From Candidatus Gastranaerophilales bacterium (GTDB lineage Bacteria > Cyanobacteriota > Vampirovibrionia > Gastranaerophilales > Gastranaerophilaceae): a stretch of 64,000 bases of DNA. The notes below the pieces were generated by a model. It did not search any database. It saw only the letters and a program-made list of their open reading frames with translations, and had not been told where the DNA came from. Below are positions 1,867 through 40,123 of the stretch, in pieces (positions within the stretch are counted from its first letter, which is position 1; each line of letters begins with the position of its first letter). The translations under genes were made by a program, and so were the position numbers. The DNA lies in assembly GCA_944323155.1 (NCBI GenBank), contig CALURL010000006.1, forward strand, positions 21,159-85,158. The letters are read 5' to 3'.

Positions 1867-2639
1867 AGTAATGTTAACCAATTTAAATGTTTGTTTTGGA
1901 GTTACATTTTAATTGGTCGGATTGGTACAAGACGACAATCTGCATCTTGTACTTTACATTTGTCATCGATGGTCATGCCACCGCAGTATGCACTGGTTTG
2001 GATATAACCACTCTTACAAGCGGCTTCACGGAAACTTGTACTCTTTAATAACCATTTGACTACACGGGCTTGGCCGCTGTAATCGTCATACTGAAGACTT
2101 ACCTCCAAGTCACTCTTACTGTTGCCGCCGCGTTCACTACCGTCTTCCGGGAAACCTGGAACGACGGTACCAGATAAGGTTAAGTAGAACGGAAAAACAT
2201 CTTCATAAAGAATACTATCACCGGCGTTGCCGTTGACGTCAACATAAACAATATAACCGCCTTCGTCCATGGTGACACATTTACCGTCAGCCAAGAACAT
2301 TCCTGCTGGACAATAGCAGCCGCAATCAGGATAATCTGTCATATTACCGCCTGAGTCGACACATTGGCTTATGGCGTCTGCATTACAGGTTTTACGTCTA
2401 CATGTGTTTGCGCCGGTGCTTTCGTAGGGCTCTTCACATTTGCACAAGCAGCCTTCTAAGTATGTACTCATCGTGCCATGGCTGGAAACACAAGCATTGA
2501 CAACATCGGTCGCACAGGTTAACTCTACACACTTACTGCCGTCACTGGCATAACCTGCAGGACAGTTGGTACATTTACAATCTGGATATGAAGTCATAGT
2601 CCCGCCACTTGAAGTACAGGTACTTATCGCGCCTGAATC

Positions 2640-2960
2640 ACAAGTTTTCATTGTACAACTGCCATTAACTAAGTTATAAAGACTTGAACAGGAATTGCAA
2701 CGGCCGGTACATTTATCGCAATTAGTACAGCCTGCACTGCAGGATTTATTACAAGCTACACAAGAGGAGCCAGACAACTGGTAACCGCTCGAACAGCTAC
2801 TACAACGACCGGTACAACGGTCACAATTGCACAACCTGCACTACAGGAGGTATTGCATAGCTGGCAACTGCTGCCGACTAACTTATAACCACTAGAACAA
2901 GAACGGCACTGACCAGTACATTTATCACAGTCGCTGCAGCCACTGCCGCAACTGCCGTGC
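2640..2960 (-). repeat. Three tandem ~105-111-nt coding repeats (furin/VSP-like Cys-rich units)
   Basis: Peptide units GSCGSGCSDCDKCTGQCRSCSSGYKLVGSSCQLCNTSCSAGC / ANCDRCTGRCSSCSSGYQLSGSSCVACNKSCSAGC / TNCDKCTGRCNSCSSLYNLVNGSC, read across the frame breaks. Confidence 0.75.
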
Positions 2961-3775
2961 AGGGTTGGCATTCTTCACCTCTATGTGCAGCACCTAAACT
3001 AACTGCTTTGTAGCCACTCGGGCAAGAACATGAACAATATGGAAAACCGCCCAGAGGGTAGCCTCCTGGATTATTAAATGTGCCACCCGAATTTTGACAT
3101 CTATTTCGATTACCTACAGAACAGTTAACAAGAGCAAACGCAGGTGGCGTAAGATTATTCATAATACCTGTCAGAAAACCACTAAACCTTTGTAGAATAC
3201 TCGCGAACTTAAAGCCGGAGACATAACCTGTTTTCATATTGCCCTTCAACTGAGGTATTTCTACATAGTCATTTTTTACATTATAAAGCTTCATGCCGTT
3301 ACGAAAAACTATATCTGGTTGTACACCCGAAAAGTCTCCTGATGCAACAGCTTGAGATATGGCTGATTTGTTGTTGCCGCTACAATTTGAAGAGACTGTA
3401 TTCACAGACTCTTCGACGGCCTCACAGAAATCATTGCCATTGGTAGGCAAAGTTACTGAGATTGATACACAATCACAAACACTTTTATCGAATGCGTAAC
3501 CATCGGGACATTGTTTTTCTGTGCTACACGTGCCTTCTTTGTGCTCGGTGTCCTGTTTCTTAATTGAATATGAATTGCCGATTAAATTCGCAGAGACACT
3601 GTTTAAGGTGTCGTAGGCGGCAAAATATGTATAAGTGACAACTTTGTCTAACTTCGTGCGGGTGATTTTTATACAAACTCCGGCGACTACAGCTATAATC
3701 AACATGACGATGATTACCTCGGACAACGTAAATCCGAACGACCGCCGAAGTCCTTGGGAGACTAAGGAATTATCG

Positions 3776-3786
3776 CCCCCCCCCCC
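3776..3786 (-). repeat. G11 homopolymer (coding strand) at codon 10 of the giant pilin-like gene; in frame
   Basis: Counted 5+6 C on the plus strand. Coding strand is ATG+27 nt+G11 = ...LLS GGGG D. With G10 the frame would hit TAG (GCG ATA ATT CCT TAG). Confidence 0.9.
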
Positions 3787-3851
3787 GCTTAACAAGCGTA
3801 AGATTCTTTTCATCTTTTTTACCTCTCTATATTCTGTGTAACTCCAATTTT

Positions 3852-3880
3852 ATTATATTAGATTTTTTGAACTTATGCAA
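3852..3880 (-). promoter_or_regulatory. Sigma-70-type promoter TTGCAT-N17-TATAAT for the giant pilin-like gene
   Basis: Minus strand: TTGCAT (3880..3875), 17-nt spacer, TATAAT (3857..3852), ~39 nt upstream of ATG 3813, with AGAGAGG as RBS. Lies inside the inverted-repeat bracket. Confidence 0.55.
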
Positions 3881-3894
3881 CCCGTAAATTTTTA

Positions 3895-3991
3895 TTGTTG
3901 GGCAGGTATGCACAAACTACAGTTATATTCTTACCAAAACCTTTAAAGTCCCACGAATATTGACACAAGTCTCTACGTGCGTAGCACAGGG
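3895..3991 (-). repeat. Composite intergenic repeat, copy 4 (inverted); right arm of the bracket
   Basis: TTGTTGGGCAGGTATGCACAAACTACAGTTATATTCTTACCAAAACCTTTAAAGTCCCACGAATATTGACACAAGTCTCTACGTGCGTAGCACAGGG is the reverse complement of the unit at 1741-1837. Confidence 0.85.
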
Positions 3992-4079
3992 ATATGAGTT
4001 ACACAATATCAAATTTGATTGCATAATACAAGTTTTTTGTATAATATATTTATAAAAGATTATATTAAGGAGAGAACAG

Positions 4080-6353
4080 ATGCAAACAATGAAACATTCT
4101 GAAAATCAGCTGGAAAATGAATTATTTAAAAGTGTTTATGACAAAACTCCCGATTACATTAAAGAATTAAACCTTATGGATTTCTCCAACAAAGGAGAGT
4201 TCACATTTACATTAAAAAAAGAACATTTGTATCCGTATGACAAAAATTCAAATCCTGAAGGACTCAATTTAAAAGATTGGTTTGCAAATTACGCAAAAGA
4301 GGCAAAAGTTTCCACAGCAGGGATTAGAGGGCCTCAAAATATTTTATTTCCGCAAGATACAAGATTTCCGATAAATCTTGTAGGAATAGTTCTTGCGACT
4401 TTAGCAAAAGCTCTAGTGGCAAAAGAAAAATACCCGAATAAAGAAATTCTAAAAGTTGCAGGAAGAGAAGTTCGTTATAATTCTGCGCTGTTTCTTGATG
4501 CAATAGCAAGAATTCAAGCGGCAAACGGTATTAAAACTCTTGTACCTAAAGAAAGAAAAACTATTCCAATCTGGCTTGCATCATTTTTAGCGTTCAAACT
4601 TGATTTACTTGGCGGTGAATATATTACATCAAGTCACGGTATTTCTGTAAAAAATGCTACAAAAGATTTGAATTCTCAAGGCAGCCAGTATCTGCCAGAG
4701 GAATCTCTTGAATTTGTTAATAAAATTCAAGAAATTTTTGACATGACAGAAAAAAATGGTTCTTACGAGATTAAAATCGCAGCACAAGATAATCCGCTTA
4801 TAGATGAAAAAATTATGGATAAATTAAATGACGGCGTGGATTTATACGTTGAATACCTGAAATCCGGCGTTGCTCAAAAAATTAATCTTGATTTAATCAA
4901 GCAGATTAAAGACAAAATTGTTATTGAAAATGTCGGAGGCTCTGCATACAGAACGCTTAGCAGAGTGTTGAAAAAACTTGAAATTTCCGATAAATTTACA
5001 TGGTTTAACACAGAAGAAGATCCGTTTTTCCATTCAATAGGGAAGTATGACCATACACCGGCCGGAGAAAAAGCATTCTACGATTATTCTGTTGATGCGA
5101 CAGTTATTGCAAAGAAAAAAGACGGCGAAAAATTCTTCCCTGTTATTGAAACAATGAACTATCAAGAAAAATTAAAAAATATGCCTGTTGGAACAGCAGT
5201 TTTAATAACAGACCCTGACCATGACAGATTAACAATTACACAAACCGAATATGCATGTACAATTCCAGAACTCGAAAGAGCAGGAATTGATTATATTAAA
5301 ATCAATGATGACGTAATTCTAACAATTTTCACAGCTAATCAAGCTTTCCTAATGCTTATGGATTTCTGGGCTAAACAATTAAAGGCTCAAGGATTATGGG
5401 GAAATCATCCGCGATTTATGATTAAAACAACAGCCTCAGCTCTTTCTTGGGATGAATGGGCAAAAAAACAAGGGGTTAAAGTTGTTAATGTTCCTGTCGG
5501 CTTCAAAGAAATTGCTAACATCATGAAAAAAGTTGAGTTGAAATTGAAAAATTCCCCTGACAAGGAAGTTATCATTGAAGATGTATTCGGCAATGAAATT
5601 AACCTCGGCATAAATCCTAGATTACTTTTCGGTGGCGAAGAATCCGGCGGAATGATTATGGGTACAGAAGATCTCATTGAATCGCTTGCAGGAAGAAAAG
5701 CAATTGCGATGAGAGAAAAAAGCGCTACAGAAGCAATTATTGTTGCCTCTGCACTTATATCAAAGCTACAAAAAGAACAGGTTTCTTTATCTGAATATCT
5801 TCAATCAGTCTTTGATGAAAATGATATTATCGGACGCTTTGATACCCGTGTTGATATCGCTTACTACAACGAATCAGAGCCTGATATCAACAAACTTAAA
5901 CAAGCTAAAATTGAAGGGGAAAAGAAACGTACTAAGAACGATTTATTTTATCTTTCAATGGCAATGGGCGTAAAAGAAGGAATTATGACACTTGATGATG
6001 TTATAGAAATCCTTAATGACAGTTTCAAAAGTCTTATATTCGATCATCTTACAAACATAAAATTTGTCGGAGATGGAACATATTTGGAATTTACTGATAA
6101 ATACATTGAAATTCGTCCTTCAGGAACAGATGCCAAAACTAAAGCATATGGCGGCGGAAGCGACAAATCAATTATTGAGACATACGCCGGTGCTATGGGT
6201 AACTACTCCGGTGAAAGAACAGAGTTACATAAAAAATTTATCTCAGATGAATTTTACGAGCAAACTAAAGATAAAGCAATGGATTATTATCTGGAATTTG
6301 TCGATAAAGACGCAAATAATGAACCATTTACAATTCCAGAATACAAATTCTAA
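4080..6353 (+). CDS. Alpha-D-phosphohexomutase superfamily protein (divergent, long phosphoglucomutase/phosphomannomutase-like)
   Basis: 757 aa. TSSHG (active-site Ser loop, like TASHNP), GGEESGG (sugar-binding loop) and RPSGTDAKTK (RxSGTEP phosphate-binding loop). Confidence 0.6.
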   Translation: MQTMKHSENQLENELFKSVYDKTPDYIKELNLMDFSNKGEFTFTLKKEHLYPYDKNSNPEGLNLKDWFANYAKEAKVSTAGIRGPQNILFPQDTRFPINLVGIVLATLAKALVAKEKYPNKEILKVAGREVRYNSALFLDAIARIQAANGIKTLVPKERKTIPIWLASFLAFKLDLLGGEYITSSHGISVKNATKDLNSQGSQYLPEESLEFVNKIQEIFDMTEKNGSYEIKIAAQDNPLIDEKIMDKLNDGVDLYVEYLKSGVAQKINLDLIKQIKDKIVIENVGGSAYRTLSRVLKKLEISDKFTWFNTEEDPFFHSIGKYDHTPAGEKAFYDYSVDATVIAKKKDGEKFFPVIETMNYQEKLKNMPVGTAVLITDPDHDRLTITQTEYACTIPELERAGIDYIKINDDVILTIFTANQAFLMLMDFWAKQLKAQGLWGNHPRFMIKTTASALSWDEWAKKQGVKVVNVPVGFKEIANIMKKVELKLKNSPDKEVIIEDVFGNEINLGINPRLLFGGEESGGMIMGTEDLIESLAGRKAIAMREKSATEAIIVASALISKLQKEQVSLSEYLQSVFDENDIIGRFDTRVDIAYYNESEPDINKLKQAKIEGEKKRTKNDLFYLSMAMGVKEGIMTLDDVIEILNDSFKSLIFDHLTNIKFVGDGTYLEFTDKYIEIRPSGTDAKTKAYGGGSDKSIIETYAGAMGNYSGERTELHKKFISDEFYEQTKDKAMDYYLEFVDKDANNEPFTIPEYKF

Positions 6354-6361
6354 AATAAAAC

Positions 6362-6397
6362 AACCGCCTTGAAGAAACCTCAAGGCGGTTTAATTTT
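6362..6397. terminator. Bidirectional hairpin terminator between convergent genes
   Basis: AACCGCCTTGA-AGAAACC-TCAAGGCGGTT (11-bp stem), followed by TAATTTT and preceded by an A-rich run. Confidence 0.75.
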
Positions 6398-7159
6398 AAA
6401 ACCAAGGATAATCATCTTTTATCTGCCAGCCGTCATAGAATATCAAACCGGTACAGTAATTAGCATACTCTTTAGTAGGTTTTCCTGAGCAATAATCCAG
6501 AAGCTGAGATCTTTGTAACCCCAAACCTCCATATGGCTCTAATCCAGTTTTTTTGTATTGAAAAGTAAAGTATTTTGAGCCGCAACAAGCTTGTTGGGAA
6601 TTAACGTCCTTCTGGCAGCTATCAACATCTTTTGCGTAAGGATAAAAATACATATCAAAGACTGTTTTGGAATTGGTCGCAGCAAAACGAATTCCAAAAC
6701 CGCTTCCGTCAACAAGCTTAACCCAAACAGTATAATCATGCACCATTCTTTCAACAGAAAGAACATTCATATGCTTTCGTAAATAGGTATTGAACCACTC
6801 CTCAGTAGCTGATTCCTGAGTCAAATCCGGATCAGGCCAATTTTCAACTTCACCATATTCAACTTCTGCTAATTTTACAGCCTGTGAAAAAGTTGAATAG
6901 AATTTTTTTAACCTTGTCTCAGCAACACCTTTTTTGTGATTAGCAACCATAGAAGGAATAGTTAAGGCTGCGACAATGCCGATTATTCCTAAAGTAATTA
7001 AGACCTCTGCTAGAGTAAAGGCGGGTTTTATTTTAGATACCTTTGTTGAATTGCAAGAAATGCATTGTCTTTCAAAAAATTTTAAAGTTCCACAAACATT
7101 GGCGCAGGTATCTAGGCGCTTGCCCCCCCCCCAACTGCTCTTCTAAATCTATTTTTCAT
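6396..7159 (-). CDS. Prepilin-type N-terminal cleavage/methylation domain protein, phase-variable leader; currently out of frame at G10
   Basis: Track ORF 6396..6950 continues upstream in frame as KPA|FTLAEVLITLGIIGIVAALTIPS with no ATG/GTG/TTG. ATG at 7159 (AAGGAGG RBS) is 209 nt upstream (209 mod 3 = 2) and reads MKNRFRRAV+G10 then GCA AGC GCC TAG. One extra G fuses it in frame with no stops (checked codon by codon). C-terminus is GWQIKDDYPWF. Confidence 0.8.
7123..7132 (-). repeat. G10 homopolymer at codon 10 of pilin-like gene (off frame)
   Basis: 8+2 C counted on the plus strand. Confidence 0.9.
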
Positions 7160-7177
7160 AAAACCTCCTTTTATATA

Positions 7178-7206
7178 AATATATCAAATTTTCAAAAGAT
7201 TCGCAA
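7178..7206 (-). promoter_or_regulatory. Candidate promoter TTGCGA-N17-TATATT for pilin-like gene 6396..7159
   Basis: Minus strand: TTGCGA (7206..7201), 17-nt spacer, TATATT (7183..7178), just after the sulP stop. Confidence 0.4.
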
Positions 7207-7209
7207 GCA

Positions 7210-8872: not shown

Positions 8873-9732
8873 CTAATACGGACTTTCATAATCATCAAAA
8901 GTATATTTTCTATTACAAAAGCTTTGATTACCCTTTACGCATTTTAAATAATCAAGATTTTCTTCCTGTAACACCCACGCAGAACAGCCACTGCCATTCC
9001 ACCAGCCATCTGCTCCAGTATCAGATGCAGGATTACACTGCTTGTAAGTAGAATGAGCTCCTGAACCGCCGCGGGGAATAATCCTGTTTCGTCCAACCTG
9101 AAATGTAAATGTGTCTACTCCCCAGCGATTTGGCCCTCTATTACCGTTTATATCGACATCAATATTAAAACAGTAATTATTACCTGAAAAAATGCCGCAC
9201 ATATTATCTTTTGCAGAACTAGCAGAGATTTGGTGGCCAAAACCGTAGACTATACCGTCTGCTGAAATTAAAGATGCACGGCTTCCGATTTCATCTACAT
9301 TATTATTAAGCAAATCTTTTCTCGCATCTTTTTGAAAACACTTGCCGCTATTGTTTTCATCAGGTGTACACACGCGCACATTTTTGATATATTTACTAAA
9401 CAAAATTGCGACATCATCCCAGGAATCATTTTCTAATGAAGGTAAAGACCAGTCTGATGGTTCGCCATAATCGTTCAGCATCATTGTATAGGCATTCGAT
9501 ATAGTTGAATATGCTTTTTTCAAACGAACAACTGTTTCTTTTTCCCTATGATTGGCAATTAAATTAGGCAATGTCAAAGCTGCGACAATGCCAATTATCC
9601 CTAAAGTAATTAAGACCTCTGCAAGGGTAAAGGCGGATTTTCTCGGTTTGCCAGACTCAATATAAGAGGTAAAATGGCCCTCTACGCGGCGCTTGCCCCC
9701 CCCCCGACAAGCTTTTTAAACAATCTTTTCAT
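8873..9732 (-). CDS. Prepilin-type protein, phase-variable leader; out of frame at G10; start overlaps murG stop
   Basis: ATG 9732 overlaps the murG TGA (ATGA). Reads MKRLFKKLV+G10 then GCA AGC GCC GCG TAG. G11 would give MKRLFKKLVGGGGKRRVEGHFTSYIESGKPRKSA|FTLAEVLITLGIIGIVAALTLPNLIANH..., joining track ORF 8873..9577 (155 nt offset, mod 3 = 2). Contains IDVDINGNRGPNRWGVDTFTF. Confidence 0.8.
9696..9705 (-). repeat. G10 homopolymer at codon 10 of pilin-like gene (off frame)
   Basis: 5+5 C counted on the plus strand. Confidence 0.9.
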
Positions 9733-10937: not shown

Positions 10938-12132
10938 TACCGCGATTCCTTATTTTTTTTATTCGTTTTTTAGATATATTTAAAAGAATTCCAACCATAA
11001 TCAGTGAAACTATTAAAGATGATCCTCCATAACTTATAAATGGCAAAGGAACTCCAGTTGTCGGCAGGAATGAGCTTGCAACACTCATATTCATAAATGC
11101 CTGAAAACCTATAGAAAAAGTAATACCAACAGCCAAGAGTTTTCCATACATATCAGGACATCTAGCGGCAATCAAAAGACCTCTATATATAAATGTAAAA
11201 AATAATCCAATTATCAATATACAACCAACATATCCTAATTCTTCAGCGATAATTGCAAAAATAAAGTCAGTATGACATTCCGGCAAATACGAAAGTTTTT
11301 GAATAGATCCGCCGTAACCAACACCGCTGAAACCTCCAGATGCAAAGGCAATTAAAGATTGAATAATATTATACCCGGCTCCCAATGGATCAAGTTCCGG
11401 GTTCTGCCATGTTTTAATACGCTGCAATTGATAAGGTTTTATAATTGTTGCAGCGGCAACAACAACAGTTGCAACCATTGCACTAACAAACCCTACAAAT
11501 AACTTCATAGAACCGCCGGCAGCCAAATACATTACAATTGTCGTTGTCCCGAGAAGAATTACCATACTTAAATTCGGCTGTATAAATATCAAACCAGCCA
11601 TTATTATTATTGGAATAAATGCCTTAATCCATTTATCTTGATCAAACAGATTTGCGTCATTTCGCATTGCTCCTGCCAAAAGTAAAACAACTGCAGGTTT
11701 AGCAAATTCAGATGGCTGCAATTGAAATCCAGCAATATTTATCCAGCGTTTTGCTCCGTTAACGACAACACCAAGAGGAGTAAAATCTACAAGGAATAAG
11801 GATAATAAAATTCCTATCATTACAATAACATTCCAGCTTGCCAGCTTTTTGTAATCATAATTCATAAAAAATTTCATTGCAAAAAAACCAACAACAAAAC
11901 AAATTACCTGTTTAAACAGGAATTGAGCAGGGTTTCCGCCGTCATCAAGACACTTCGGAGCTGTAGCCGAAAAAATTGCCAAAAAACCTATTATGACAAG
12001 AAAGGCTACCACAATCAACAAAGTTTTATCAGGAGCCGATACGATAATACTTTGAATTGGCTGCTCTTCGTAAGGATTTCTGCCCCCGCGTTCTCTATAC
12101 ATTCTATCTGGCATTGGTCTTTGATAAGACAT
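10930..12132 (-). CDS. ftsW: SEDS family peptidoglycan glycosyltransferase (FtsW/RodA), FtsW by dcw context
   Basis: Multi-pass membrane protein ending ..PFISYGGSSL... Track ORF starts at 12189 but overlaps murD by 86 nt. Internal ATGs at 12132, 12114 and 12102 are more plausible, so the start is uncertain. Confidence 0.85.
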   Translation of the reverse strand: MSYQRPMPDRMYRERGGRNPYEEQPIQSIIVSAPDKTLLIVVAFLVIIGFLAIFSATAPKCLDDGGNPAQFLFKQVICFVVGFFAMKFFMNYDYKKLASWNVIVMIGILLSLFLVDFTPLGVVVNGAKRWINIAGFQLQPSEFAKPAVVLLLAGAMRNDANLFDQDKWIKAFIPIIIMAGLIFIQPNLSMVILLGTTTIVMYLAAGGSMKLFVGFVSAMVATVVVAAATIIKPYQLQRIKTWQNPELDPLGAGYNIIQSLIAFASGGFSGVGYGGSIQKLSYLPECHTDFIFAIIAEELGYVGCILIIGLFFTFIYRGLLIAARCPDMYGKLLAVGITFSIGFQAFMNMSVASSFLPTTGVPLPFISYGGSSLIVSLIMVGILLNISKKRIKKIRNRGNV

Positions 12133-21595: not shown

Positions 21596-22449
21596 TTAAT
21601 AATTCATTTCCCAGTTGTCATTTAGAATTTTTCCGAAACATCCATCGCCAAGAGGTGATTTTTGACAAAATGATTCAAATCTTTTTTCACGGTTTTCAGA
21701 GATACAATTAGAGGAATTGTCACTACATGTGTTAATTTCTTTATACTCATCAATTGAACCATCTTGATAAAATCTAGCGATAAACATATCTCTTCCACCG
21801 ATATTAGGGCCATTAACTCCGTTAACGTCAATAGTAATCAACCCGCCGTAAAAATTTTCGCTTGTTTCATATACAGCAATAGGAGATACACAAATAGAAG
21901 CGCCACTTGCTATAACAAAACATTTTACACCATCTGAAGTCTCAACATTCGTACTAAAAGTCTTAGTCCCATCAATAGATCTGTATTCATCTGCAAAACA
22001 AGGTCTATATTTGGTACCACAATCATTTACTATTTTAAAATACTGAGTCATAAAATCAGTTGTTTTATCCGAAGATGACAAACCTGCTTCTACTAAGTTT
22101 ATTGCGTTATGATCAGTTTGATATCTTACAAAAGCCTGACTAAATTCACTATAAACTTTATGTAATTGAGTTACATAAGTTTTTCTCTGATGATTTTGCA
22201 TTAAAGTTGGAACAGTCATGGCAGAAACTACACCAATAATTCCTAAAGTTACCAGAACTTCCGCTAGAGTAAATGCACATTTCTTTTTAAAAACTCTTGT
22301 TGGGCTGAAGATAGTATAGACCTTCTCCCCCAAATTGACGATTTGGTATAGATCTAAATTGTTTTTTGAGCAAACATTATCAGCTGCATCACCGTGTGCA
22401 ACTAAGCCTTTGCCCCCCCCCCAACTGTTTCTCTAAATAAATTTTGCAT
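21596..22449 (-). CDS. Prepilin-type protein, phase-variable leader; out of frame at G10
   Basis: ATG 22449 (AAGGAGG RBS, 12 nt after the radical-SAM stop) reads MQNLFRETV+G10 then GCA AAG GCT TAG. G11 would give a 59-aa leader ending ..KKKCA|FTLAEVLVTLGIIGVVSAMTVPTL, joining ORF 21596..22333 (116 nt offset, mod 3 = 2). Contains DVNGVNGPNIGGRDMF and the C-terminus GCFGKILNDNWEMNY. Confidence 0.8.
22413..22422 (-). repeat. G10 homopolymer at codon 10 of pilin-like gene (off frame)
   Basis: 8+2 C counted on the plus strand. Confidence 0.9.
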
Positions 22450-25275: not shown

Positions 25276-25370
25276 TAAATCAGTATCTCCCCGAAAATAA
25301 ACTCTTTGTCATTTTACGATACAACGAACAAAAAGCATAGTCAATAAAAACTTGACAAAGCAAAAATAAA

Positions 25371-25395
25371 AAAGAGAGTTTTAACTCTCTTTTTT
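25371..25395 (-). terminator. Rho-independent terminator after pyrG
   Basis: Minus strand: AAAGAGAGTTAAAACTCTCTTT flanked by an A run and a T run, immediately after the stop at 25396. Confidence 0.7.
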
Positions 25396-28315: not shown

Positions 28316-29314
28316 ATGACACTATTTATAACACTTGTAGCATTCGTTTTTATAATAGGGCTTTGTATAGGAAGTTTTTTAAATGTTGTCATACTCAGAA
28401 CCCTATCTGAAGAATCAATTGTTTTTCCAGCGTCAAAATGTCCAAAATGCCAGCATCCGTTAAAATGGTGGCATAATATACCTTTAATATCTTATATTTG
28501 CCTTAAAGGCAAATGTGCTTTTTGTAAAGAACCAATCAGCATACAATATCCTATTGTGGAACTTTTAACAGGAATCATATTCACATTAATATTTTTAAAA
28601 TTCGGCATTTCTGTTGATACAATTGTGGGCTGGATTATTGCAAGTTTACTTATTATTATTGCAGGGACTGATTTTAAAGAAAAAGTTGTTTATGATATTC
28701 ACACACTTTCACTTGTTGGTGTAGGTCTTTTATACGCTGCAATAGTTACAGCTTATGGATTATTTGTTATGCACAATGCAACTGGAGAAATCACATTTAG
28801 CAAAGATTTACTTCTAAACAATCCTTTCACAAACTCAGTTCTTGGCATAATTGCAGGTATTGTTATTATGGAAGTATTTGCGAGATTTGGCTACCTTGTT
28901 CAAAGAGGTGTTAGAATGTTTGAAGTCGGCGATACTTATATTGCTGCAGGTTTGGGAGCATTTCTTGGCTGGAGAACACTAATTATTGCTCTTATATTAT
29001 CAGTTATATTGCAAGTTATATATTTTCTGCCGCTATTTATCAAAGATTTATTTTGTAAAAAAGAATGGAAAACGCTTATTCCATTTGTACTATTTGTAAT
29101 TTATGCCATAACATTTTTCTCACTAGAACATTATGGAATTATAGATATTTCAAACTTTGCATTATACAGTGCATTAACACTATTGCTTGCAGGTCTTGGA
29201 ATTTATACATGTTATAGAATATTTAAAGGTCTAAGAGAAAATCCATCATCTGCAACATGTTTACCGTTCGGACCGGCAATGGTTGTTGCCGCGCTAATTT
29301 TGTTAATTTTATAA
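28316..29314 (+). CDS. pilD: Prepilin peptidase (A24 family, PilD-like)
   Basis: Zn-finger-like CPKCQHPL...CAFCKEPIS, QYPIVELLTG, GTDFKEKVVYD and VGDTYIAAGLGAFLGW aspartyl motifs, multi-pass membrane. Confidence 0.85.
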   Translation: MTLFITLVAFVFIIGLCIGSFLNVVILRTLSEESIVFPASKCPKCQHPLKWWHNIPLISYICLKGKCAFCKEPISIQYPIVELLTGIIFTLIFLKFGISVDTIVGWIIASLLIIIAGTDFKEKVVYDIHTLSLVGVGLLYAAIVTAYGLFVMHNATGEITFSKDLLLNNPFTNSVLGIIAGIVIMEVFARFGYLVQRGVRMFEVGDTYIAAGLGAFLGWRTLIIALILSVILQVIYFLPLFIKDLFCKKEWKTLIPFVLFVIYAITFFSLEHYGIIDISNFALYSALTLLLAGLGIYTCYRIFKGLRENPSSATCLPFGPAMVVAALILLIL

Positions 29315-29333: not shown

Positions 29334-29390
29334 ATGTTATTCAAAAATAATTCACGCGTTTGCCCCCCCCCCGACAAGCTAATAAAATAA
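29334..29390 (+). other. Inverted copy of the pilin leader/homopolymer module; reads as an 18-codon mini-ORF on the plus strand
   Basis: AGGAGG 29321-29326, then ATG 29334 ... CGCGTTTG-C10-GACAAGCT. This is the reverse complement of AGCTTGTC-G10-CAAGCGC seen at 9690-9715. Plus-strand ORF is MLFKNNSRVCPPPDKLIK*. Flanked by direct repeats ATAAAATAAA(A)GG at 29311 and 29382. Confidence 0.6.
29363..29372 (+). repeat. C10 homopolymer (tract inverted relative to the adjacent pilin-like gene)
   Basis: 8+2 C counted on the plus strand. Confidence 0.9.
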
Positions 29391-29417
29391 AGGTTTTTGG
29401 GGATATCTATAAAAATA

Positions 29418-29446
29418 TTGACAATTTTAAGAATATACTTCATAAT
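29418..29446 (+). promoter_or_regulatory. Candidate promoter TTGACA-N17-CATAAT upstream of pilin-like gene 5
   Basis: TTGACA 29418-29423, 17-nt spacer, CATAAT 29441-29446. Confidence 0.5.
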
Positions 29447-29471
29447 AGTGATGTGTTACATCTCAAATTAA

Positions 29472-30166
29472 AAAAATAAATTATATATTGAGGAAGATAA
29501 GATTATATCCAAACTTGCTTTCACATTAGCTGAAGTTTTAATTACGCTCGGAATTATAGGGATAGTTGCAGCGTTAACTTTACCGTCAGTTATTACTAAA
29601 TATCAAAAAAAGAGGCGGCCACAAGACTTGAACATGCTTATGCAGTTGTATATCAAGCCATAAAGATGTCAGAAGCAGTTAACGGGCCTATGGAAGACTG
29701 GCAAATCGAAGGTATAAATGATTTAAGCTACGCTGAAATTACTAAAAATTTTGTTGAAAGGTATATAACACCATACCTTACAACTGTCAATAAAAAACAA
29801 TTACCTTCATCTGGTATGCCTTATGACTATTACTATAGAGAAAACGGAAAGCTTGTTAATGCCGGCGGGCATACATATTATAGTATTGCGTTGAATAATG
29901 GAACTTATTTGCATTTTAATGCAGACTACGGACAATCCAATCCAATAAGCTTAAGAATTGATATAAACGGAGAAAAGAAACCTAATATTGCAGGAAGAGA
30001 TACATTTCATCTCTACTTTTTCCCGAAATTTGAATTTGAGGGTAGCAATTTAACAAGAACACAGCTGATAAATGGGTGTAAAAATGGAGTTAATTATGGT
30101 TCTGTACACTGCGGACGAATAATTCAAATGGATGGATGGCAGATAAAAGACGATTACCCTTGGTAG
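29472..30166 (+). pseudogene. Prepilin-type gene lacking a canonical start and frameshifted in an A7 run
   Basis: Open frame from 29472 reads KNKLYIEEDKIISKLA|FTLAEVLITLGIIGIVAALTLPSVITKYQKK with no ATG/GTG/TTG (GAGGAAG RBS-like, then in-frame ATT 29502). The frame is lost at A7 (29605-29611). An A8 would continue EAATRLEHAYAVVYQAIKMSEAVNG into track ORF 29666..30166. Contains LRIDINGEKKPNIAGRDTFHLYF and the C-terminus GWQIKDDYPW. Confidence 0.75.
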
Positions 30167-30175
30167 CCCCTCCCT

Positions 30176-30799
30176 CTACAATGAAAGTATTCGCAAACTT
30201 TCTTTCAAAATATCTTCAGCAGACGCATTATCCGACAAAACAGAGACGGCTTTTGATAATGCGTTTTGTATTTCCTTGCGTTCATAACCCAGTGAAACAA
30301 GAACCATTTGAGCATCTTCAATAGCCTGATTATCCTGTTTTACCTCTGATATAGAAGTTATTTTTATCGGCTCTTTTGTTTGATAATTCATTAATTTATC
30401 TTTCAATTCCAATATAATTTTTTGAGCGAGTTTTGGTCCAACACCTTTAGCTCTGGTTAATTCTTTGTAATTACCTTCAATAACAAAGCCGATAAGTTCT
30501 GATGTTTCAAATTCATCAAGCAGAGTTAAAGCCATTTTTGCCCCGACTCCAGAAACTGAAATCAGGATATTAAATATATCTCTTGCTTCTTTATGCAAAA
30601 ATCCGCACAATGACATTTTATCTTCCCTATGCAAAAGAACAGTATAAATTTTGCCTTCTTGCCCCGGTTCAGGAGCAGAGTTAAAGTCTCTCAATGTTAC
30701 CTCAAGCAGATACCCGATTCCAAAAGTCTCTACGGTAACGTATGTTCCCTTTGAAGTATTTGATTTATTAGTAAAAATACCTTTTATATAATCGTACAT
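30176..30799 (-). CDS. ruvA: Holliday junction branch migration complex subunit RuvA
   Basis: MYDYIKGIF... N-terminus, two HhH motifs (VSGVGAKMAL, AKGVGPKLAQKI), C-terminal domain III. Confidence 0.88.
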   Translation of the reverse strand: MYDYIKGIFTNKSNTSKGTYVTVETFGIGYLLEVTLRDFNSAPEPGQEGKIYTVLLHREDKMSLCGFLHKEARDIFNILISVSGVGAKMALTLLDEFETSELIGFVIEGNYKELTRAKGVGPKLAQKIILELKDKLMNYQTKEPIKITSISEVKQDNQAIEDAQMVLVSLGYERKEIQNALSKAVSVLSDNASAEDILKESLRILSL

Positions 30800-32196
30800 T
30801 AACTCTCCTTTAAAGAACTTCTGATTTCTGCTACAGCACGGTCAAGCTCTTTATTCACACGTAATTCATCCTTAATTTTTTCATAAGAATAAAGCATTGT
30901 TGTGTGTTTTTTATTGAAATATTCTGCAATACATTCAAAACTTTTTTGTGTAAGTTCACGTGCGAGATAAACAGCAACATGACGTGCTGACGAAACCCTT
31001 TGATTTCTGGAAGAACTCAAAAAATCAGCTATAGAAACGCCATAGTGTTCACCTACTGCTTTTGCGACTTTATCAATTGTCAATGCTTTTTTAGAAGCCT
31101 CACAGTTAAGAACTTTTTTTGCAAATTCCAGCGTAATATCTGTATTTTCAATATCTGCGTAAGCACTGACTTTATTAAACGCACCTTCAAGCTCTCTTAC
31201 ATTATTTACAAAATTATTTGCGATATATTCAAACACAGGAAAATCAATTTTCAAACCGGCCTGCTCTGCAAGATTACTCAAAATAGCGACCCTTGTTTCA
31301 AAATCAGGCGGTGTAATATCAACAACAAGTCCCATTTCAAAACGGGTTCTTAACCTGTCTGGAAGAGTCGGAATATCTTTTGGCAGCCTGTCTGATGTTA
31401 TAACAATCTGTTTATTATTGTTGTGCAAACTGTCAAATGTATGGAAAATTTCCTCCATTGTATAAGTTTTACTTTCCAAAAATTGAATATCATCAATTAA
31501 TAAAACATCAACATTTCTATACTTTTGACGGAACTTATCCATTCTGGAATTTCTTTCTCCGCCATGCTGGAGATTTTTAATTAATTCATTAACATACTCT
31601 TCTGTTTTGATATATTTTACACGGAGTTTCGGCTTATTAAAAATAATATAATGGCCGATTGCCTGCATAAGGTGAGTTTTGCCAAGCCCTGAAGCGCCGT
31701 AAATAAAGAGCGGATTATATTTTTTTGCCGGATTTTGAGCAACAGTAAGCGCTGCTGCATGAGCAAAACGGCTATTTTCACCTACAACAAAATTTGAAAA
31801 TTTATATTTTAAATTCAAATTTGCAGATGACTGCATTTGAGCAAGATTGTCAACCATAGAAGAATCATCCGTATCAACTGTAAGAGAGCGTTTTTGTTTT
31901 GCAAACTCCTTTTTCTTCTCTTTTTGATATTTATCAGCAAGTTCAGCATCAAAAGTAATATGATAGCTTACGTCTTTGCCTAATACTTTTTTAAAGGCAT
32001 CAGTAATTTGTTTATTGTAATTGGATTTAACCACCTGTGGCGCAAGAGAATGAACTGTATAAACAGAAAAAACATTTCCGTCATAATCAGCGGCTTCCAA
32101 AGGTTCAAGCCACATTTGATATGCAGGTGTAGGAACTGTATCCCTTAATTCAGCCTTAACTTCACTCCAAAGATTTTTTACTTCCTGTGTTTCCAT
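30799..32196 (-). CDS. dnaA: Chromosomal replication initiator protein DnaA
   Basis: AAA+ Walker A GASGLGKTHL, LLIDDIQF, C-terminal DnaA signature (RNQRVSSARHVAVYLAREL). Stop overlaps the ruvA ATG (TAATG). Confidence 0.93.
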   Translation of the reverse strand: METQEVKNLWSEVKAELRDTVPTPAYQMWLEPLEAADYDGNVFSVYTVHSLAPQVVKSNYNKQITDAFKKVLGKDVSYHITFDAELADKYQKEKKKEFAKQKRSLTVDTDDSSMVDNLAQMQSSANLNLKYKFSNFVVGENSRFAHAAALTVAQNPAKKYNPLFIYGASGLGKTHLMQAIGHYIIFNKPKLRVKYIKTEEYVNELIKNLQHGGERNSRMDKFRQKYRNVDVLLIDDIQFLESKTYTMEEIFHTFDSLHNNNKQIVITSDRLPKDIPTLPDRLRTRFEMGLVVDITPPDFETRVAILSNLAEQAGLKIDFPVFEYIANNFVNNVRELEGAFNKVSAYADIENTDITLEFAKKVLNCEASKKALTIDKVAKAVGEHYGVSIADFLSSSRNQRVSSARHVAVYLARELTQKSFECIAEYFNKKHTTMLYSYEKIKDELRVNKELDRAVAEIRSSLKES

Positions 32197-35316: not shown

Positions 35317-35389
35317 GCGGAAGTAACTCAATGGCTAGAGTCCCTGCCTTCCAAGCAGGTTGTTGCGAGTTCGAGTCTCGTCTTCCGCT
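35317..35389 (+). tRNA. tRNA-Gly (anticodon UCC)
   Basis: Hand-folded cloverleaf: acceptor GCGGAAG/CTTCCGC, D stem ACTC/GAGT, anticodon stem CCTGC/GCAGG with loop CTTCCAA, T arm GCGAG-TTCGAGT-CTCGT. 73 nt, no encoded CCA, T-run follows. Confidence 0.92.
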
Positions 35390-35430
35390 TTTTTGGTACC
35401 TATTTTATTGTTGTTTAATACTGAGGGGTT

Positions 35431-36279: not shown

Positions 36280-36746
36280 ATATAAAAATTATTGCACTCG
36301 GAAAAATTAAAGAAAAATTTTTGAAAGATGGAATAGACGAATTTCTAAAACGTTTAACGCCATATGCCAGTGTTGAAATCATTGAACTGCCTGCAATTGA
36401 AATTAAAGATGAAAACTTAACTCAAAAAGTTCTTGAGCAGGAAGGTGAAAAAATTCTTTCACATATCAAATCTCAGTCCTATGTTATAACACTGGAAATT
36501 CAAGGAAAAATGTTTTCCTCTGAAGAATTTGCTCAAAAAATCCAAGATTTAACAAATGAAGGAATTAGCGAAGTTGTTTTTGTAATCGGTTCTTCTTGTG
36601 GAATATCAAGAAGTGTATCAAACCGTGCAAATCTAAAAATGAGTATGTCAAAAATGACATTTTTACATCAATTTGCACGGCTTATACTAGTTGAACAAAT
36701 TTATCGCGCTTTCAAAATTATTAAAGGTGAAACTTACCATAAATAA
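36276..36746 (+). CDS. rlmH: 23S rRNA (pseudouridine1915-N3)-methyltransferase RlmH
   Basis: 156 aa SPOUT protein, MNIKIIALGKIKEKF... and ..LILVEQIYRAFKIIKGETYHK are typical RlmH ends. Confidence 0.88.
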   Translation: MNIKIIALGKIKEKFLKDGIDEFLKRLTPYASVEIIELPAIEIKDENLTQKVLEQEGEKILSHIKSQSYVITLEIQGKMFSSEEFAQKIQDLTNEGISEVVFVIGSSCGISRSVSNRANLKMSMSKMTFLHQFARLILVEQIYRAFKIIKGETYHK

Positions 36747-36755
36747 AATATAAAA

Positions 36756-37535
36756 TTATTTTATTTCTTTTTGATACGCCCAGGCTGAATGATTATGAAT
36801 ACTTTCAAACGCTTCACATTCAACTTCGAATTCTCTTACAACAGAGTGATTACGTAATTTAACAACCACATCACGCAAGACATCCTCAACAAACTTTGGA
36901 TTGTCCCACGCACGTTCTGTAACAAACTTTTCATCCTCACGCTTTAACAGAGGATAAACAGGGCAAGATGCGCAAGATTCAACAAGTTCAATCAAATCCT
37001 CCAGCCATATTTGTTCGCTCTCATCATAAGATACTTTTACCTTAATATAAGCACGCTGATTATGAGCGCCATTTTCAGAAATTTCTTTAGAGCACGGGCA
37101 TAAAGTTGTTACAGGCACAACAACTCCGAGAATAAATTTATAATTATCCTCTTCAATACGCCCCTCAAAAGAACATTCATAACTCATTGGAGAACTTAAT
37201 CCCGTAACAGGAGATTTTTTATCTATAAAATATGTAAATTTAAATTCCAGTTCTCCGCTTTGCGCTTCAAGATTTTGTATAATCTTTTCAAGACATCCTT
37301 TAATATCAACACCCAGAAGATTTTTGTGCTGCCATTCAGTAAGAACTTCTACAAAACGGCTCATATGAGTTCCCTTGTAATCCCTTGGCAAAGAAACATT
37401 AACCTTTGCTTTGGCACAGACAACTTGATTAGAATTATTCTTCCGCTGAATAATCAACGGTAATTCTAAATGTTTTATACCGACCTTCTGAATATCAACA
37501 TTTCTGTCGTCTTTAAGATTTTGAATATCTTTCAT
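36756..37535 (-). CDS. folE2: GTP cyclohydrolase I type IB (FolE2/MptA family)
   Basis: 259 aa with KGTHMSRF and CPCSKEIS..GAHNQR motifs. Confidence 0.85.
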   Translation of the reverse strand: MKDIQNLKDDRNVDIQKVGIKHLELPLIIQRKNNSNQVVCAKAKVNVSLPRDYKGTHMSRFVEVLTEWQHKNLLGVDIKGCLEKIIQNLEAQSGELEFKFTYFIDKKSPVTGLSSPMSYECSFEGRIEEDNYKFILGVVVPVTTLCPCSKEISENGAHNQRAYIKVKVSYDESEQIWLEDLIELVESCASCPVYPLLKREDEKFVTERAWDNPKFVEDVLRDVVVKLRNHSVVREFEVECEAFESIHNHSAWAYQKEIK

Positions 37536-37677
37536 AAAAATATCCTTAATATTTCTTAATAAAACAAGACAAAATTAGCAATTTTTTATTACCACTTTAC
37601 TTTATATAAATATAAAGCTCTCTCTTCTTATTTAAACGGATAGGCCTTGAATACCAAGGTCTTTTTTTTGCCTTGAT

Positions 37678-38151
37678 TTACTTTGATTCAGCAGCGTTTG
37701 CTTTATCAAGCATTGATCTTATTCTTAAATATCTGTCTAACTCTTCTTTGAATTTACCAACATTAGCGTACAAACCTTGAGTTAAATGAATTTTATTATC
37801 ATATTTAGCATCAAGTATGTATACAGTTGGGAAACCTTCTATAAGAGCGTCAGCAACAACTTTTTTATATTTAGGATCTTCACAGTTAATCATTACAAAA
37901 TTATATTTATTTTTGTACATAGTGCTCAAAATTTGATAACGCGGCATAAATCTTAAACAAAAACCGCACCAGTCAACATAAAACAAAGCAACAGAAGGTT
38001 TATCAGACTGCATTGCTTCTTCATATGTAATTCCGATTTTATAATCAGAAGGATGTTTCTTTTCAAGCATGCCTGCTATTGCAAAGCCGACTGCAGATGT
38101 AAATAAAAATGCAAATACTAGACACAATGTAACTATTAATTTCTTTTTCAT
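37678..38151 (-). CDS. Secreted or membrane-anchored thioredoxin-fold protein
   Basis: Signal/anchor MKKKLIVTLCLVFAFLFTSAVG, WCGFC redox motif. Confidence 0.8.
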   Translation of the reverse strand: MKKKLIVTLCLVFAFLFTSAVGFAIAGMLEKKHPSDYKIGITYEEAMQSDKPSVALFYVDWCGFCLRFMPRYQILSTMYKNKYNFVMINCEDPKYKKVVADALIEGFPTVYILDAKYDNKIHLTQGLYANVGKFKEELDRYLRIRSMLDKANAAESK

Positions 38152-38398
38152 ATCAATTTCCCCCCTTTATTAATAACAATTATACAACAAATATAAAAAC
38201 TCTCAATCAAATAAAGAGAAAATATTATTTTTAACATTTCGTAACAGAATGTTTAAAAAAGTATATACTATGGTATATACTTAATATATATTATCTCGTT
38301 GTCAATATTAATACACTGAATACCAGCTATTCAGCGTTATTAGCAATTCAAAAACTAAGGAGCAATAATCAGTTTAACTAAGAAGGAGTTTAAAATTT

Positions 38399-39313
38399 AT
38401 GAGTAAGAATTCAGCAATCAAAATGAAAAAAGTAATTGATTTCTCTAACCCCGCAAAAAATGAAGTTATCAGCGGTTCAAACGATAGTATATTATCCAAT
38501 TACATAAGAGAAATAAGTGATTACAAAAATTTATCTCCTAAAGAAGAAAAAGAACTTGCAAAACTTGCTAAAGAAGGAAACTTTGAAGCAAAACAAAAAC
38601 TAATTGAAGCTAATTTAAAACTGGTAGTAACAATTGCAAAAAAAGCAATCCACATGTCAAAAATTCCGATGATAGATTTAATACAGGAAGGCAATTTAGG
38701 ATTAATGGTTGCTGCTGAAAAATTTAACTACAAACTCGGTTATAAATTTGCAACTTATGCAAGCTGGTGGATTAAACAAGCAATGTTTAAGGCTATTTCT
38801 GAACAATCATACAGCATGAAAATTCCTGTATATATCCAAGAAACTCTATCCAAATTCTCAAAAATCAAAAGAGAAATGGAAAGAGAAAACAATTCACCTG
38901 TTACTACAGATGATGTCGCAAAAAAAATGAATATTTCAACAGACAAAATAGACACCTTCCTAAACGCCTATTCAAAAACACTATCAATAGAAAGCTGTCT
39001 TGAAAACCGCGATGGCAAAGATATGTGTATTGCAGATATACTAGAAGACGAAAAAGCATCTGCAACGGAAGAAGTTGAGTTTGAATATTTAAAAAACGAT
39101 ATTAATATGGTAATTTCTACTCTTAAAGAACGTGAACAGGAAGTTGTAAGAATGCGCTACGGACTAGATGATAATGTAAGATATACTTTAGAAGAAATCG
39201 GCAATATTTATGGAGTAACAAAAGAATGCATTCGTCAAACAGAATTAAGAGCTTTAAAGAAAATGCGATTTTCTGTAATTGGTCAAGAAGTTTTATCAAG
39301 CTATATGGAATAG
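38399..39313 (+). CDS. RNA polymerase sigma-70 family factor (RpoD-like, group 1/2 type regions 2-4)
   Basis: LIEANLKLVVTIAKK, IQEGNLGLMVAAEKF, FATYASWWIKQA (region 2.4), RMRYGL...TLEEIGNIYGVTKECIRQTELRALKKM (region 4.2). Confidence 0.85.
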   Translation: MSKNSAIKMKKVIDFSNPAKNEVISGSNDSILSNYIREISDYKNLSPKEEKELAKLAKEGNFEAKQKLIEANLKLVVTIAKKAIHMSKIPMIDLIQEGNLGLMVAAEKFNYKLGYKFATYASWWIKQAMFKAISEQSYSMKIPVYIQETLSKFSKIKREMERENNSPVTTDDVAKKMNISTDKIDTFLNAYSKTLSIESCLENRDGKDMCIADILEDEKASATEEVEFEYLKNDINMVISTLKEREQEVVRMRYGLDDNVRYTLEEIGNIYGVTKECIRQTELRALKKMRFSVIGQEVLSSYME

Positions 39314-39373
39314 GATATAGAAGAAGGTAGGCATTTTAATTCCTCATCGTGTTTATTAAATTAGGATTTTAAA

Positions 39374-39405
39374 AAAGGTCATTAATTTTACTCAATGACC
39401 TTTTT
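39374..39405. terminator. Bidirectional terminator between convergent genes
   Basis: AAAGGTCATT-AATTTTACTC-AATGACCTTT followed by TT and preceded by an A run. Confidence 0.75.
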
Positions 39406-39413
39406 AATTTTAT

Positions 39414-40123
39414 CTAATAATTCATTTCCCAGTTGTCATTTAATATCTTTCCAAAACAACCTGTCCAATAGCTAGGACTCAGGCAATAATCATTATATGC
39501 TTTTTCGCGCTCATCACGTGTTCCCGGGGCAGAAACAACATGATAATCATCAACCATTCCATTATTAAATAAAGATATGATAAAAACATCTCTACCTGCG
39601 ATATTAGGCCCTTTTGCGCCATTAATATCGACATCAAGCGTACATAGTCTGTCACCAGCACCTGTTGTATAGCCATAACCTATTGATACACCACTTGTCA
39701 GAGTTATAAAGGCTGGTCTTGATGAATAAATATTTGTTCCTGATAAGTTACGATATTCAGAATTAGGAGCAAAACACGGTACAGACTCATCCTTACAATC
39801 ACTTGCGATATTAAAATATGTCTTAAAAAAACTATCTAACGCAGCTTGAGAATTCAATCCTGCTTCCCGCATATTTACAGCATTATGATCAGTAATATAC
39901 CTTTGAGCAGCTTGTGACAATTCAGTATAAAATTTATGCAATTGCGTAACATACACTTTACGCTGATGACTTTGCATTAAAGTTGGAACGGTCATCGCAG
40001 AAACCACCCCAATAATACCCAAAGTAACCAGAACCTCTGCTAACGTAAAGCCTCTACGGCGATTGGAAAAGGAGACTAAGCCTGTGCCCCCCCCCCGTGA
40101 AGTGCTCTAATTAATTCTTTCAT
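39414..40123 (-). CDS. Prepilin-type protein, phase-variable leader; out of frame at G10
   Basis: ATG 40123 (AAGGAGAG RBS) reads MKELIRALH+G10 then GCA CAG GCT TAG. G11 would give MKELIRALHGGGGTGLVSFSNRRRG|FTLAEVLVTLGIIGVVSAMTVPTL, joining ORF 39414..40022 (101 nt offset, mod 3 = 2). Contains LDVDINGAKGPNIAGRDVF and the C-terminus GCFGKILNDNWEMNY. Confidence 0.82.
40087..40096 (-). repeat. G10 homopolymer at codon 10 of pilin-like gene (off frame)
   Basis: 4+6 C counted on the plus strand. Confidence 0.9.

What the first reader, a model, noticed from the sequence alone, without database searches (positions are those of the whole stretch)
1902..40123. Every frame break in the window is a one-base deficit, and all are confined to the pilin-like family
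There are seven breaks: four G10 tracts, two non-homopolymer sites in the giant gene, and the A7 run at 29605-29611. Each places the downstream segment in the -1 frame, so each would be repaired by adding one base. All six pilin-like genes are affected, while none of the ~55 other CDS is broken although many contain A7-A8 runs. Possible explanations are (i) population-level phase variation captured mostly in the off state, (ii) rescue by transcriptional slippage or -1 ribosomal frameshifting, as reported for long homopolymers in some endosymbionts, (iii) family-specific decay, or (iv) sequencing deletion bias at G runs.
Basis: inference. Interest (0 to 1): 0.65.

Follow-up and report, generated by a model that had tools for sequence, protein, structure and literature searches.

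The report
Poly-G on/off switches on pilin-like genes
An uncultured gut bacterium (Gastranaerophilales, a non-photosynthetic relative of cyanobacteria) carries a run of 10-11 G or C bases near the start of each pilin-like surface-protein gene; this is the slippage-prone on/off switch well known from Campylobacter and Neisseria, apparently not yet reported in this group, and most copies are caught switched off.

Summary
In detail: all seven breaks exist and each lacks one base. They are two different things.

**Switches.** Four breaks (five counting an overlooked C10 at 29363-29372) are homopolymer tracts. Each sits 8-9 codons after a ribosome-binding site and ATG, in the leader of a prepilin-like gene. 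G11 gives the full protein; G10 stops 3-4 codons later. Orthologous tracts in other metagenomes read G9, G10 or G11. Similar tracts sit ahead of about 40% of related genes across Gastranaerophilales species. The mature regions evolve at dN/dS 0.05-0.23. This is classical simple-sequence-repeat phase variation, mostly caught OFF.

**Ordinary frameshifts.** Three breaks are plain single-base deletions: two in the giant gene and the A7 run. Intact orthologues show the missing base. The giant-gene deletions recur in an independent sample.

**Corrections.**
- The switches are not confined to pilins. A GT8 glycosyltransferase (G11, ON here) is G10 or G12 in other assemblies.
- One leader A-run in the sixth gene carries a surplus base.
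- In other species 8 of 28 OFF tracts are one base too long.

Sequencing deletion bias is therefore unlikely as the general cause. The mechanism is known; the lineage and gene family appear new.

The parts
3776..3786 (-). G11 tract in the leader of the giant pilin-like gene. It is in frame (ON) here.
   Evidence: The orthologous tract is G10 in L013, L015, L016 and L017.
1902..3813 (-). Giant prepilin-like gene (637 aa when repaired) with Cys-rich ~35 aa repeats. It carries two single-base deletions, near 2957 and near 2830.
   Evidence: Intact orthologues P0121-P0127 and L015 read straight through both sites. The same deletions occur in L001 and L013. Pfam N_methyl scores above its cut-off.
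7123..7132 (-). G10 leader tract (OFF; ON = G11) of pilin-like gene 6396-7159.
   Evidence: DUF6613 match. The orthologue is G11 in L004.
9696..9705 (-). G10 leader tract (OFF; ON = G11) of pilin-like gene 8873-9732.
   Evidence: The orthologue is G11 in L006. dN/dS of the mature region is 0.05-0.15.
22413..22422 (-). G10 leader tract (OFF; ON = G11) of pilin-like gene 21596-22449.
   Evidence: N_methyl match. The orthologue is G11 in L006.
40087..40096 (-). G10 leader tract (OFF; ON = G11) of pilin-like gene 39414-40123.
   Evidence: It is G10 in L018 and L019 as well.
29335..30166 (+). Sixth pilin-like gene, multiply disrupted. It has a sense-strand C10 tract at 29363-29372 (needs C11), a leader A-run at 29470-29476 (A7, one base too many) and the A7 run at 29605-29611 (one base too few).
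   Evidence: The tract is C11 in L023 and L026. The leader run is A6 in L018, L020 and L025. The body run is A8 in L019 and L024 and ACAAAAAA in L021.
28316..29314 (+). Prepilin peptidase (A24 family), immediately upstream of the sixth pilin-like gene.
   Evidence: The 332 aa orthologues in L018-L023 carry PF06750 and PF01478. Translation.
49046..49056 (-). G11 tract inside the GT8 glycosyltransferase gene 48532-49467. It is in frame (ON) here.
   Evidence: Other assemblies read G10 (141 aa product), G12 (150 aa) or G11 (311 aa).

Best explanation
The window comes from a Candidatus Gastranaerophilales (Melainabacteria) gut population. Its prepilin-like (N_methyl + DUF6613) genes each begin with a small cassette: a ribosome-binding site, an ATG, 8-9 codons, then a G or C homopolymer of about 10 bases. 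A variable, loosely constrained leader follows, then the prepilin cleavage/methylation motif (A/G|FTLAEV).

Slipped-strand mispairing during replication changes the tract by one base. Only one length class (G11/C11 in this species) joins the start codon to the pilin domain. G10 terminates after 3-4 more codons. Each gene is therefore a stochastic, reversible ON/OFF switch, and a GT8 glycosyltransferase is switched in the same way. A consensus assembly shows the majority allele, which is OFF for nearly every copy.

The dominant one-base-short state fits the deletion-biased G11->G10 toggling measured in Campylobacter jejuni. Selection against ON cells probably adds to it.

The other three breaks (two in the giant gene, and the A7 run) are ordinary single-base deletions shared by several assemblies, so they are inherited lesions. 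Genes that are usually OFF are shielded from purifying selection, which would let such lesions accumulate.

Shown: anatomy, frames, between-sample length variation, spread across the clade, purifying selection. Inferred: the slippage mechanism, reversibility, within-population mixtures, the shielding argument.
For: - **Non-random tracts.** There are seven G/C runs of 10 or more bases and none of 6-9 in 64 kb of 34% GC sequence. GGG makes up only 11% of Gly codons.
- **Frames.** All four G10 genes become full-length at G11.
- **Variation at orthologous tracts** across independent metagenomes. In my deduplicated tally, about 50 read G/C10, 8 read G/C11 and 1 reads G9. Nearly identical strains differ: the giant-gene tract is G11 in the window and G10 in L013. 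GT8 reads G10 in 8 loci and G11 in 3, and a 150 aa product matching G12 exists.
- **Spread across the clade.** Of 79 pilin-like loci from Gastranaerophilales species representatives, 32 have a tract of 8 or more bases upstream. In all 30 with an SD-start, the frame is open to the pilin domain in exactly one length class. Two are ON, 20 are one short and 8 are one long.
- **Length tracks frame.** Genes with ON = 10 avoid G10 (1 of 8), against 16 of 22 at length 10 for the other classes (Fisher p = 0.009).
- **Purifying selection.** dN/dS of the mature regions is 0.05-0.23.
- **Pilin context.** A prepilin peptidase lies in the window. The AF2 model (pLDDT 83) has a 53-residue N-terminal helix plus a beta domain.
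- **Mutation bias precedent.** In C. jejuni, G11->G10 runs at 38.8e-4 and G10->G11 at 3.7e-4 per division (PMC3401435).
- **Non-tract breaks.** Intact orthologues and shared lesions are shown.
Against: - No read-level data, so heterogeneity within one population is not shown. No sample yielded both alleles.
- Consensus calls at G10/G11 from short reads carry some uncertainty. One low-coverage contig (L002) is garbled at the tract.
- The OFF fraction is so high (2 of 30 ON across species) that some expression from OFF alleles by slippage cannot be excluded.
- Leaders of 25-59 aa are long for prepilins.
- The globular domain has no significant structural match to solved pilins.
Confidence: 0.8

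Rival explanations
1. Sequencing or assembly artefact. The true tracts are G11/C11 and one base is systematically lost in homopolymer runs, so the genes are in fact intact.
For: Every OFF tract in this species is exactly one base short of ON. A 3x-coverage contig (L002) is visibly corrupted at the tract. All data are consensus metagenome assemblies.
Against: - The same kinds of assemblies also report G11, G12, G13, C11, C12 and G9.
- Two samples of the same study series (contig prefix ONAT22-1, or BRZ) give different lengths at one locus.
- In other species 8 of 28 OFF tracts are one base too long.
- Tract length depends on the gene's ON frame (Fisher p = 0.009). A length-driven error would not do that.
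- The two non-homopolymer deletions recur in an independent sample.
Confidence: 0.07
2. Programmed rescue. The G10 alleles are the working state, and RNA-polymerase slippage or -1 ribosomal frameshifting on the G run supplies a steady low dose of full-length protein.
For: A G10 run is a perfect slippery sequence. OFF alleles dominate (28 of 30 across species), yet the genes are under purifying selection. A stop codon follows 3-4 codons after each tract.
Against: - The direction needed is not constant: 20 loci need +1 and 8 need -1.
- In-frame alleles do occur.
- The 70 nt downstream of the five tracts fold no better than shuffles (z from -0.9 to +0.7).
- No Rfam element is present.
- The tract lengths themselves vary in the DNA.
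Confidence: 0.1
3. Family-wide pseudogene decay. The pilin-like genes are dying relics and the tract frameshifts are simply lesions.
For: Two of the six genes do carry ordinary frameshifts. The sixth gene is disrupted in all ten assemblies examined. Gene presence varies between strains.
Against: - dN/dS of the mature regions is 0.05-0.23.
- The leader frames stay open for 15-157 codons in the one ON class in 30 of 30 loci.
- Pure G/C runs are kept across species in an AT-rich genome.
- ON alleles exist.
Confidence: 0.05

Closest known systems
Poly-G/C contingency loci of Campylobacter jejuni (about 29 tracts per genome, modal G9-G10)
   Same: A mononucleotide G/C tract sits inside the reading frame of surface-structure genes, including glycosyltransferases. 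Single-base changes switch the gene ON or OFF. The genome is low in GC. Tract length is biased by mutation, with G11->G10 much faster than G10->G11 (PMC3401435).
   Different: Here most of the tracts seen (six of seven in this window) sit in the leaders of one paralogous prepilin-like family, at a fixed distance from the start codon. The host is an uncultured Melainabacteria lineage. The consensus is OFF far more often than chance would give. No switching rates have been measured.
Neisseria pilC (poly-G in the signal-peptide coding region) and opa genes (CTCTT repeats in the leader). This comparison rests on my own knowledge.
   Same: The repeat lies in the signal or leader peptide coding region, so frame alone decides whether a pilus-associated or surface protein is made. 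In the opa family, many copies each switch independently and most are OFF at any one time.
   Different: The proteins are unrelated: these are class III signal-peptide prepilin-like DUF6613 proteins, not PilC adhesin or Opa beta-barrels. The repeat is a homopolymer rather than a pentamer. The leaders are long and loosely constrained (25-59 aa).
Transcriptional slippage rescue of poly-A frameshifts in insect endosymbionts (Buchnera, Blochmannia). This comparison rests on my own knowledge.
   Same: Long homopolymers within genes leave the DNA sequence out of frame.
   Different: In the endosymbionts the tracts are poly-A in housekeeping genes, the DNA length is stable and rescue happens at the RNA level. 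Here the tracts are G/C, the DNA length varies between samples, in-frame alleles exist and the direction of shift needed is not constant.

Membership tests
Simple-sequence-repeat phase-variable (contingency) locus | A hypermutable repeat tract lies within the coding region or promoter. | tested here: met
   G/C10-11 tracts sit 8-9 codons after the ATG in six genes and inside the GT8 gene.
Simple-sequence-repeat phase-variable (contingency) locus | A change of one repeat unit toggles between a full-length and a truncated product. | tested here: met
   In silico, G10 gives 15-16 aa and G11 gives 236-286 aa. For GT8, G10 gives 141 aa, G11 311 aa and G12 150 aa.
Simple-sequence-repeat phase-variable (contingency) locus | Tract length is polymorphic at orthologous sites among closely related strains. 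| tested here: met
   G9, G10, G11 and G12 are seen at orthologous tracts in independent samples. Strains 99.8% identical differ at the giant-gene tract and the GT8 tract.
Simple-sequence-repeat phase-variable (contingency) locus | Switching is high-frequency and reversible within a clonal population. | not testable with these tools
   This needs per-read spectra or a culture. No sample gave both alleles in consensus contigs.
Type IV pilin / pseudopilin (class III signal peptide protein) | N-terminal cleavage/methylation motif (G/A|F-T-L-x-E) followed by a hydrophobic helix. | tested here: met
   Pfam PF07963 scores above its cut-off in two genes. The motif is present in all six. The AF2 model has a helix over residues 4-56.
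Type IV pilin / pseudopilin (class III signal peptide protein) | A cognate prepilin peptidase is encoded. | tested here: met
   The gene at 28316-29314; its orthologues carry PF06750 and PF01478.
Type IV pilin / pseudopilin (class III signal peptide protein) | The globular domain has the pilin fold. | tested here: inconclusive
   The best Foldseek hit is gonococcal pilin 1AY2, but at E = 0.41 and TM 0.24-0.35. Only the overall helix-plus-sheet layout agrees.
Type IV pilin / pseudopilin (class III signal peptide protein) | A short, positively charged leader (about 5-30 aa). | tested here: not met
   ON-frame leaders are 25, 26, 33, 46 and 59 aa in the window and 15-157 aa in relatives.
Programmed -1 ribosomal frameshift site | A slippery heptamer plus a conserved downstream stimulatory structure, with a constant direction of shift. 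| tested here: not met
   The G run is slippery. Downstream folding is no better than shuffles, with z from -0.9 to +0.7. Homologues need +1 (20 loci) or -1 (8 loci).

The most novel reading that the evidence does not exclude
The tracts may be held one base away from ON by selection, not only by mutation bias. The gut population would then carry a large, default-silent library of prepilin-like surface proteins. Expression would come either from rare ON cells or from a metered trickle through RNA-polymerase or ribosome slippage on the G10 run. That would be a dosage device rather than a simple binary switch, and the first contingency system described in the cyanobacterial sister lineage.
Probability: 0.12. 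Interest if true: 0.75.

Novelty: new member of a known kind. Interest (0 to 1): 0.5.

Why it matters
Gastranaerophilales are uncultured, so almost nothing is known about how they deal with host immunity or phage. The results have four practical consequences.

- **A hidden repertoire.** These bacteria carry many independently switching surface-protein genes, and at least one switching glycosyltransferase. They probably vary their surface much as Campylobacter and Neisseria do.
- **Annotation.** Gene callers currently truncate these genes, or extend them through non-coding leaders. The many odd N-termini among the thousands of database homologues reflect this.
- **MAG quality checks.** These frameshifts should not be "corrected" or scored as assembly errors.
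- **A usable read-out.** ON/OFF states could be read directly from metagenomic reads, giving a population-level record of selection on a commensal's surface.

Tried and rejected
- **Inverted cassette.** I considered whether the C10 tract at 29363 was an inverted G-type cassette, because the flanks (GCTTG...CAAGC) look palindromic. I rejected this. C-type leaders (M..ALRI-TTG-C10-GAAAAG) are a separate, widespread class with their own SD and ATG on the sense strand.
- **Frameshift-stimulating RNA structure.** I looked downstream of five tracts and found none. Rfam found only a tRNA.
- **Pilin fold.** A Foldseek search of the AF2 model against the PDB gave no significant hit.
- **Both alleles in one sample.** I looked for the ON and OFF GT8 alleles in the same sample and found none.
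- **Literature.** Searches for Gastranaerophilales or Melainabacteria with phase variation, homopolymer or pilin returned nothing relevant. The library holds open-access papers only.
- **L002.** This 3x-coverage contig has a garbled G12...G14 duplication at the tract, which I treated as an artefact.
- **L001 and L116.** They come from one sample and are nearly identical to the window (3 differences in 20.9 kb), so I did not count them as independent.
- **P0123.** This gene call makes G10 look ON by using an upstream TTG that runs through the SD region. I judged it a gene-caller artefact.


Full report
**What is in the sequence.** The window has about 34% GC. It holds exactly seven C runs of 10-11 bases on the + strand. 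There are no C7-C9 runs and no G run longer than 5.
- Six tracts lie in genes read on the minus strand, so they are poly-G in the mRNA. Five of these sit 8-9 codons after a strong SD and an ATG, at the head of an ORF that later carries the prepilin motif A/G|FTLAEV. They are at 3776-3786 (G11) and at 7123-7132, 9696-9705, 22413-22422 and 40087-40096 (all G10).
- With G10, translation stops after 15-16 codons. With G11, each gene gives a 236-286 aa protein.
- The sixth minus-strand tract (49046-49056, G11) lies in the middle of a GT8 glycosyltransferase and is in frame.
- The seventh tract (29363-29372) is a sense-strand C10. It follows an SD and ATG at 29335, just downstream of a prepilin peptidase, and heads the only plus-strand pilin-like gene.
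- A motif scan finds exactly six prepilin-like ORFs, and all six are disrupted.

**The three non-tract breaks.** The repaired giant gene (3813->1902) encodes a 637 aa prepilin-like protein with Cys-rich repeats.
- Database orthologues P0121-P0127 read straight through both break sites.
- The DNA of one orthologue (L015) shows that the window lacks a C near 2957 and an A near 2830.
- The same two deletions occur in L013, from a different sample with 18 SNPs over 11.6 kb. They are therefore real and inherited.
- The A7 run at 29605-29611 is A8 or ACAAAAAA in three assemblies and A7 in six others besides the window.
- The same gene also needs C11, and its leader A-run at 29470-29476 has one base too many. 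It is broken in all ten assemblies examined. This is ordinary decay.

**Related sequences.** The source is Candidatus Gastranaerophilales. I fetched loci from other metagenomes through exact matches to flanking proteins.
- The tracts are conserved in position. They read mostly G/C10, sometimes G/C11 and once G9, and the ON length is always 11.
- Strains 99.8% identical differ at the giant-gene tract (G11 against G10). At the GT8 tract, 3 loci read G11 and 8 read G10, and a G12 product also exists.
- The family is large, with more than 6,700 homologues. Many database N-termini contain GGG(G) or start at internal codons. This is what gene callers produce from OFF alleles.

**Survey across species.** I examined 79 pilin-like loci from Gastranaerophilales species representatives.
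- 32 carry a G or C tract of 8 or more bases upstream.
- In all 30 that have an SD-start, the frame from that start to the pilin domain is open in exactly one tract-length class, across 15-157 codons.
- Two are ON, 20 are one base short and 8 are one base long.
- The ON fraction is far below one third (p = 0.0014).
- Tract length depends on the frame. Genes whose ON length is 10 avoid G10 (Fisher p = 0.009).
- The mature regions evolve at dN/dS 0.05-0.23.
- GGG is a rare Gly codon here, at 11%, so the pure run is maintained at the nucleotide level.

**Mechanism.** This is the anatomy of translational phase variation by slipped-strand mispairing, as known from Campylobacter, Neisseria and Haemophilus.
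- In C. jejuni, G11->G10 deletions are about ten times faster than G10->G11 insertions (PMC3401435). That alone predicts roughly 90% G10 when ON is G11, close to what is seen here.
- The dependence of length on frame suggests that selection against ON cells adds to the bias.
- The uniform one-base deficit in this window thus has a simple origin: ON = 11, a modal length of 10, and three unrelated deletions (three alike has a chance of about 1 in 8 or better).
- Genes that are usually silent are shielded from selection. This plausibly explains why ordinary frameshifts accumulate in this family only; that step is inference.

**Rivals.**
- Sequencing deletion bias is contradicted by three results: longer and shorter tracts are recovered, some OFF alleles are one base too long, and the non-homopolymer deletions recur in an independent sample.
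- Programmed frameshifting has no conserved stimulatory structure and no constant direction. Some leaky expression from a G10 run cannot be excluded.
- Family-wide decay is contradicted by the low dN/dS and the open leaders.

**Pilin identity.** The N_methyl motif, a long N-terminal helix in a confident AF2 model and a neighbouring prepilin peptidase all support a type IV pilin-like nature. Two features are atypical: the globular DUF6613 domain has no significant match in the PDB, and the leaders are long.

**Novelty.** No paper in the searchable library links Gastranaerophilales or Melainabacteria with phase variation or homopolymer tracts. The mechanism is well known; the lineage and the gene family appear to be new.

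Noticed in passing
window 1483-1518, 1680-1795, 3936-3987: Copies of a ~60 nt intergenic repeat with core CTACGTGCGTAGCAC and a palindromic AAAACTTTAAAGTTTT flank the giant pilin-like gene on both sides; there are four exact cores against 0.33 expected. Translations of the same element (ATHVGTC.N.RETLK) appear inside the over-extended N-termini of database homologues P0002, P0003, P0007 and P0008. A weak partial match lies in the leader of gene 6396-7159 (7075-7089).
   Followed up: partly
window 3776-49056 (all seven tracts): All seven tracts are poly-C on the + strand whatever the gene's orientation: six genes on the minus strand use poly-G and the one plus-strand gene uses poly-C. GC skew is negative across the window. 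This may reflect a replication-strand preference, or chance.
   Followed up: no
window 25276-25395, compared with L003 19104-19799 and L019 15523-16218: Several strains carry an extra 231-233 aa C-tract pilin-like gene between the MFS transporter and CTP synthase that this window lacks. L006 has a further tract-bearing gene near 11734. The family therefore varies by gene presence and absence as well as by switching.
   Followed up: partly
L002 5326-5418: A 3x-coverage contig shows G12, then 67 nt of G-rich junk, then G14 where other assemblies have a single G10. This looks like a short-read artefact at the tract.
   Followed up: partly
window 50315-52738: MutS2 (MutS_V + Smr) is encoded here. 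Whether the genome has the mismatch-repair proteins MutS1 and MutL, whose absence goes with poly-G instability in Campylobacter and Helicobacter, could not be checked.
   Followed up: no
window 30176-32196: dnaA (30799-32196) sits directly upstream of ruvA on the minus strand, yet cumulative GC skew shows no turning point in the window.
   Followed up: no
L016 10001-10068, L017 8330-8397: In a related strain the G10 allele of the giant gene is in frame with an upstream TTG that reads through the SD region (gene call P0123, 606 aa). This is probably a gene-caller artefact, but it could allow some expression of the OFF allele.
   Followed up: partly
L001 21125-21134 (just beyond the window start): Another SD-ATG-(MKYLSKHVH)-G10 cassette lies about 190 bp outside the window's left edge, so the tract density continues beyond the window.
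   Followed up: no
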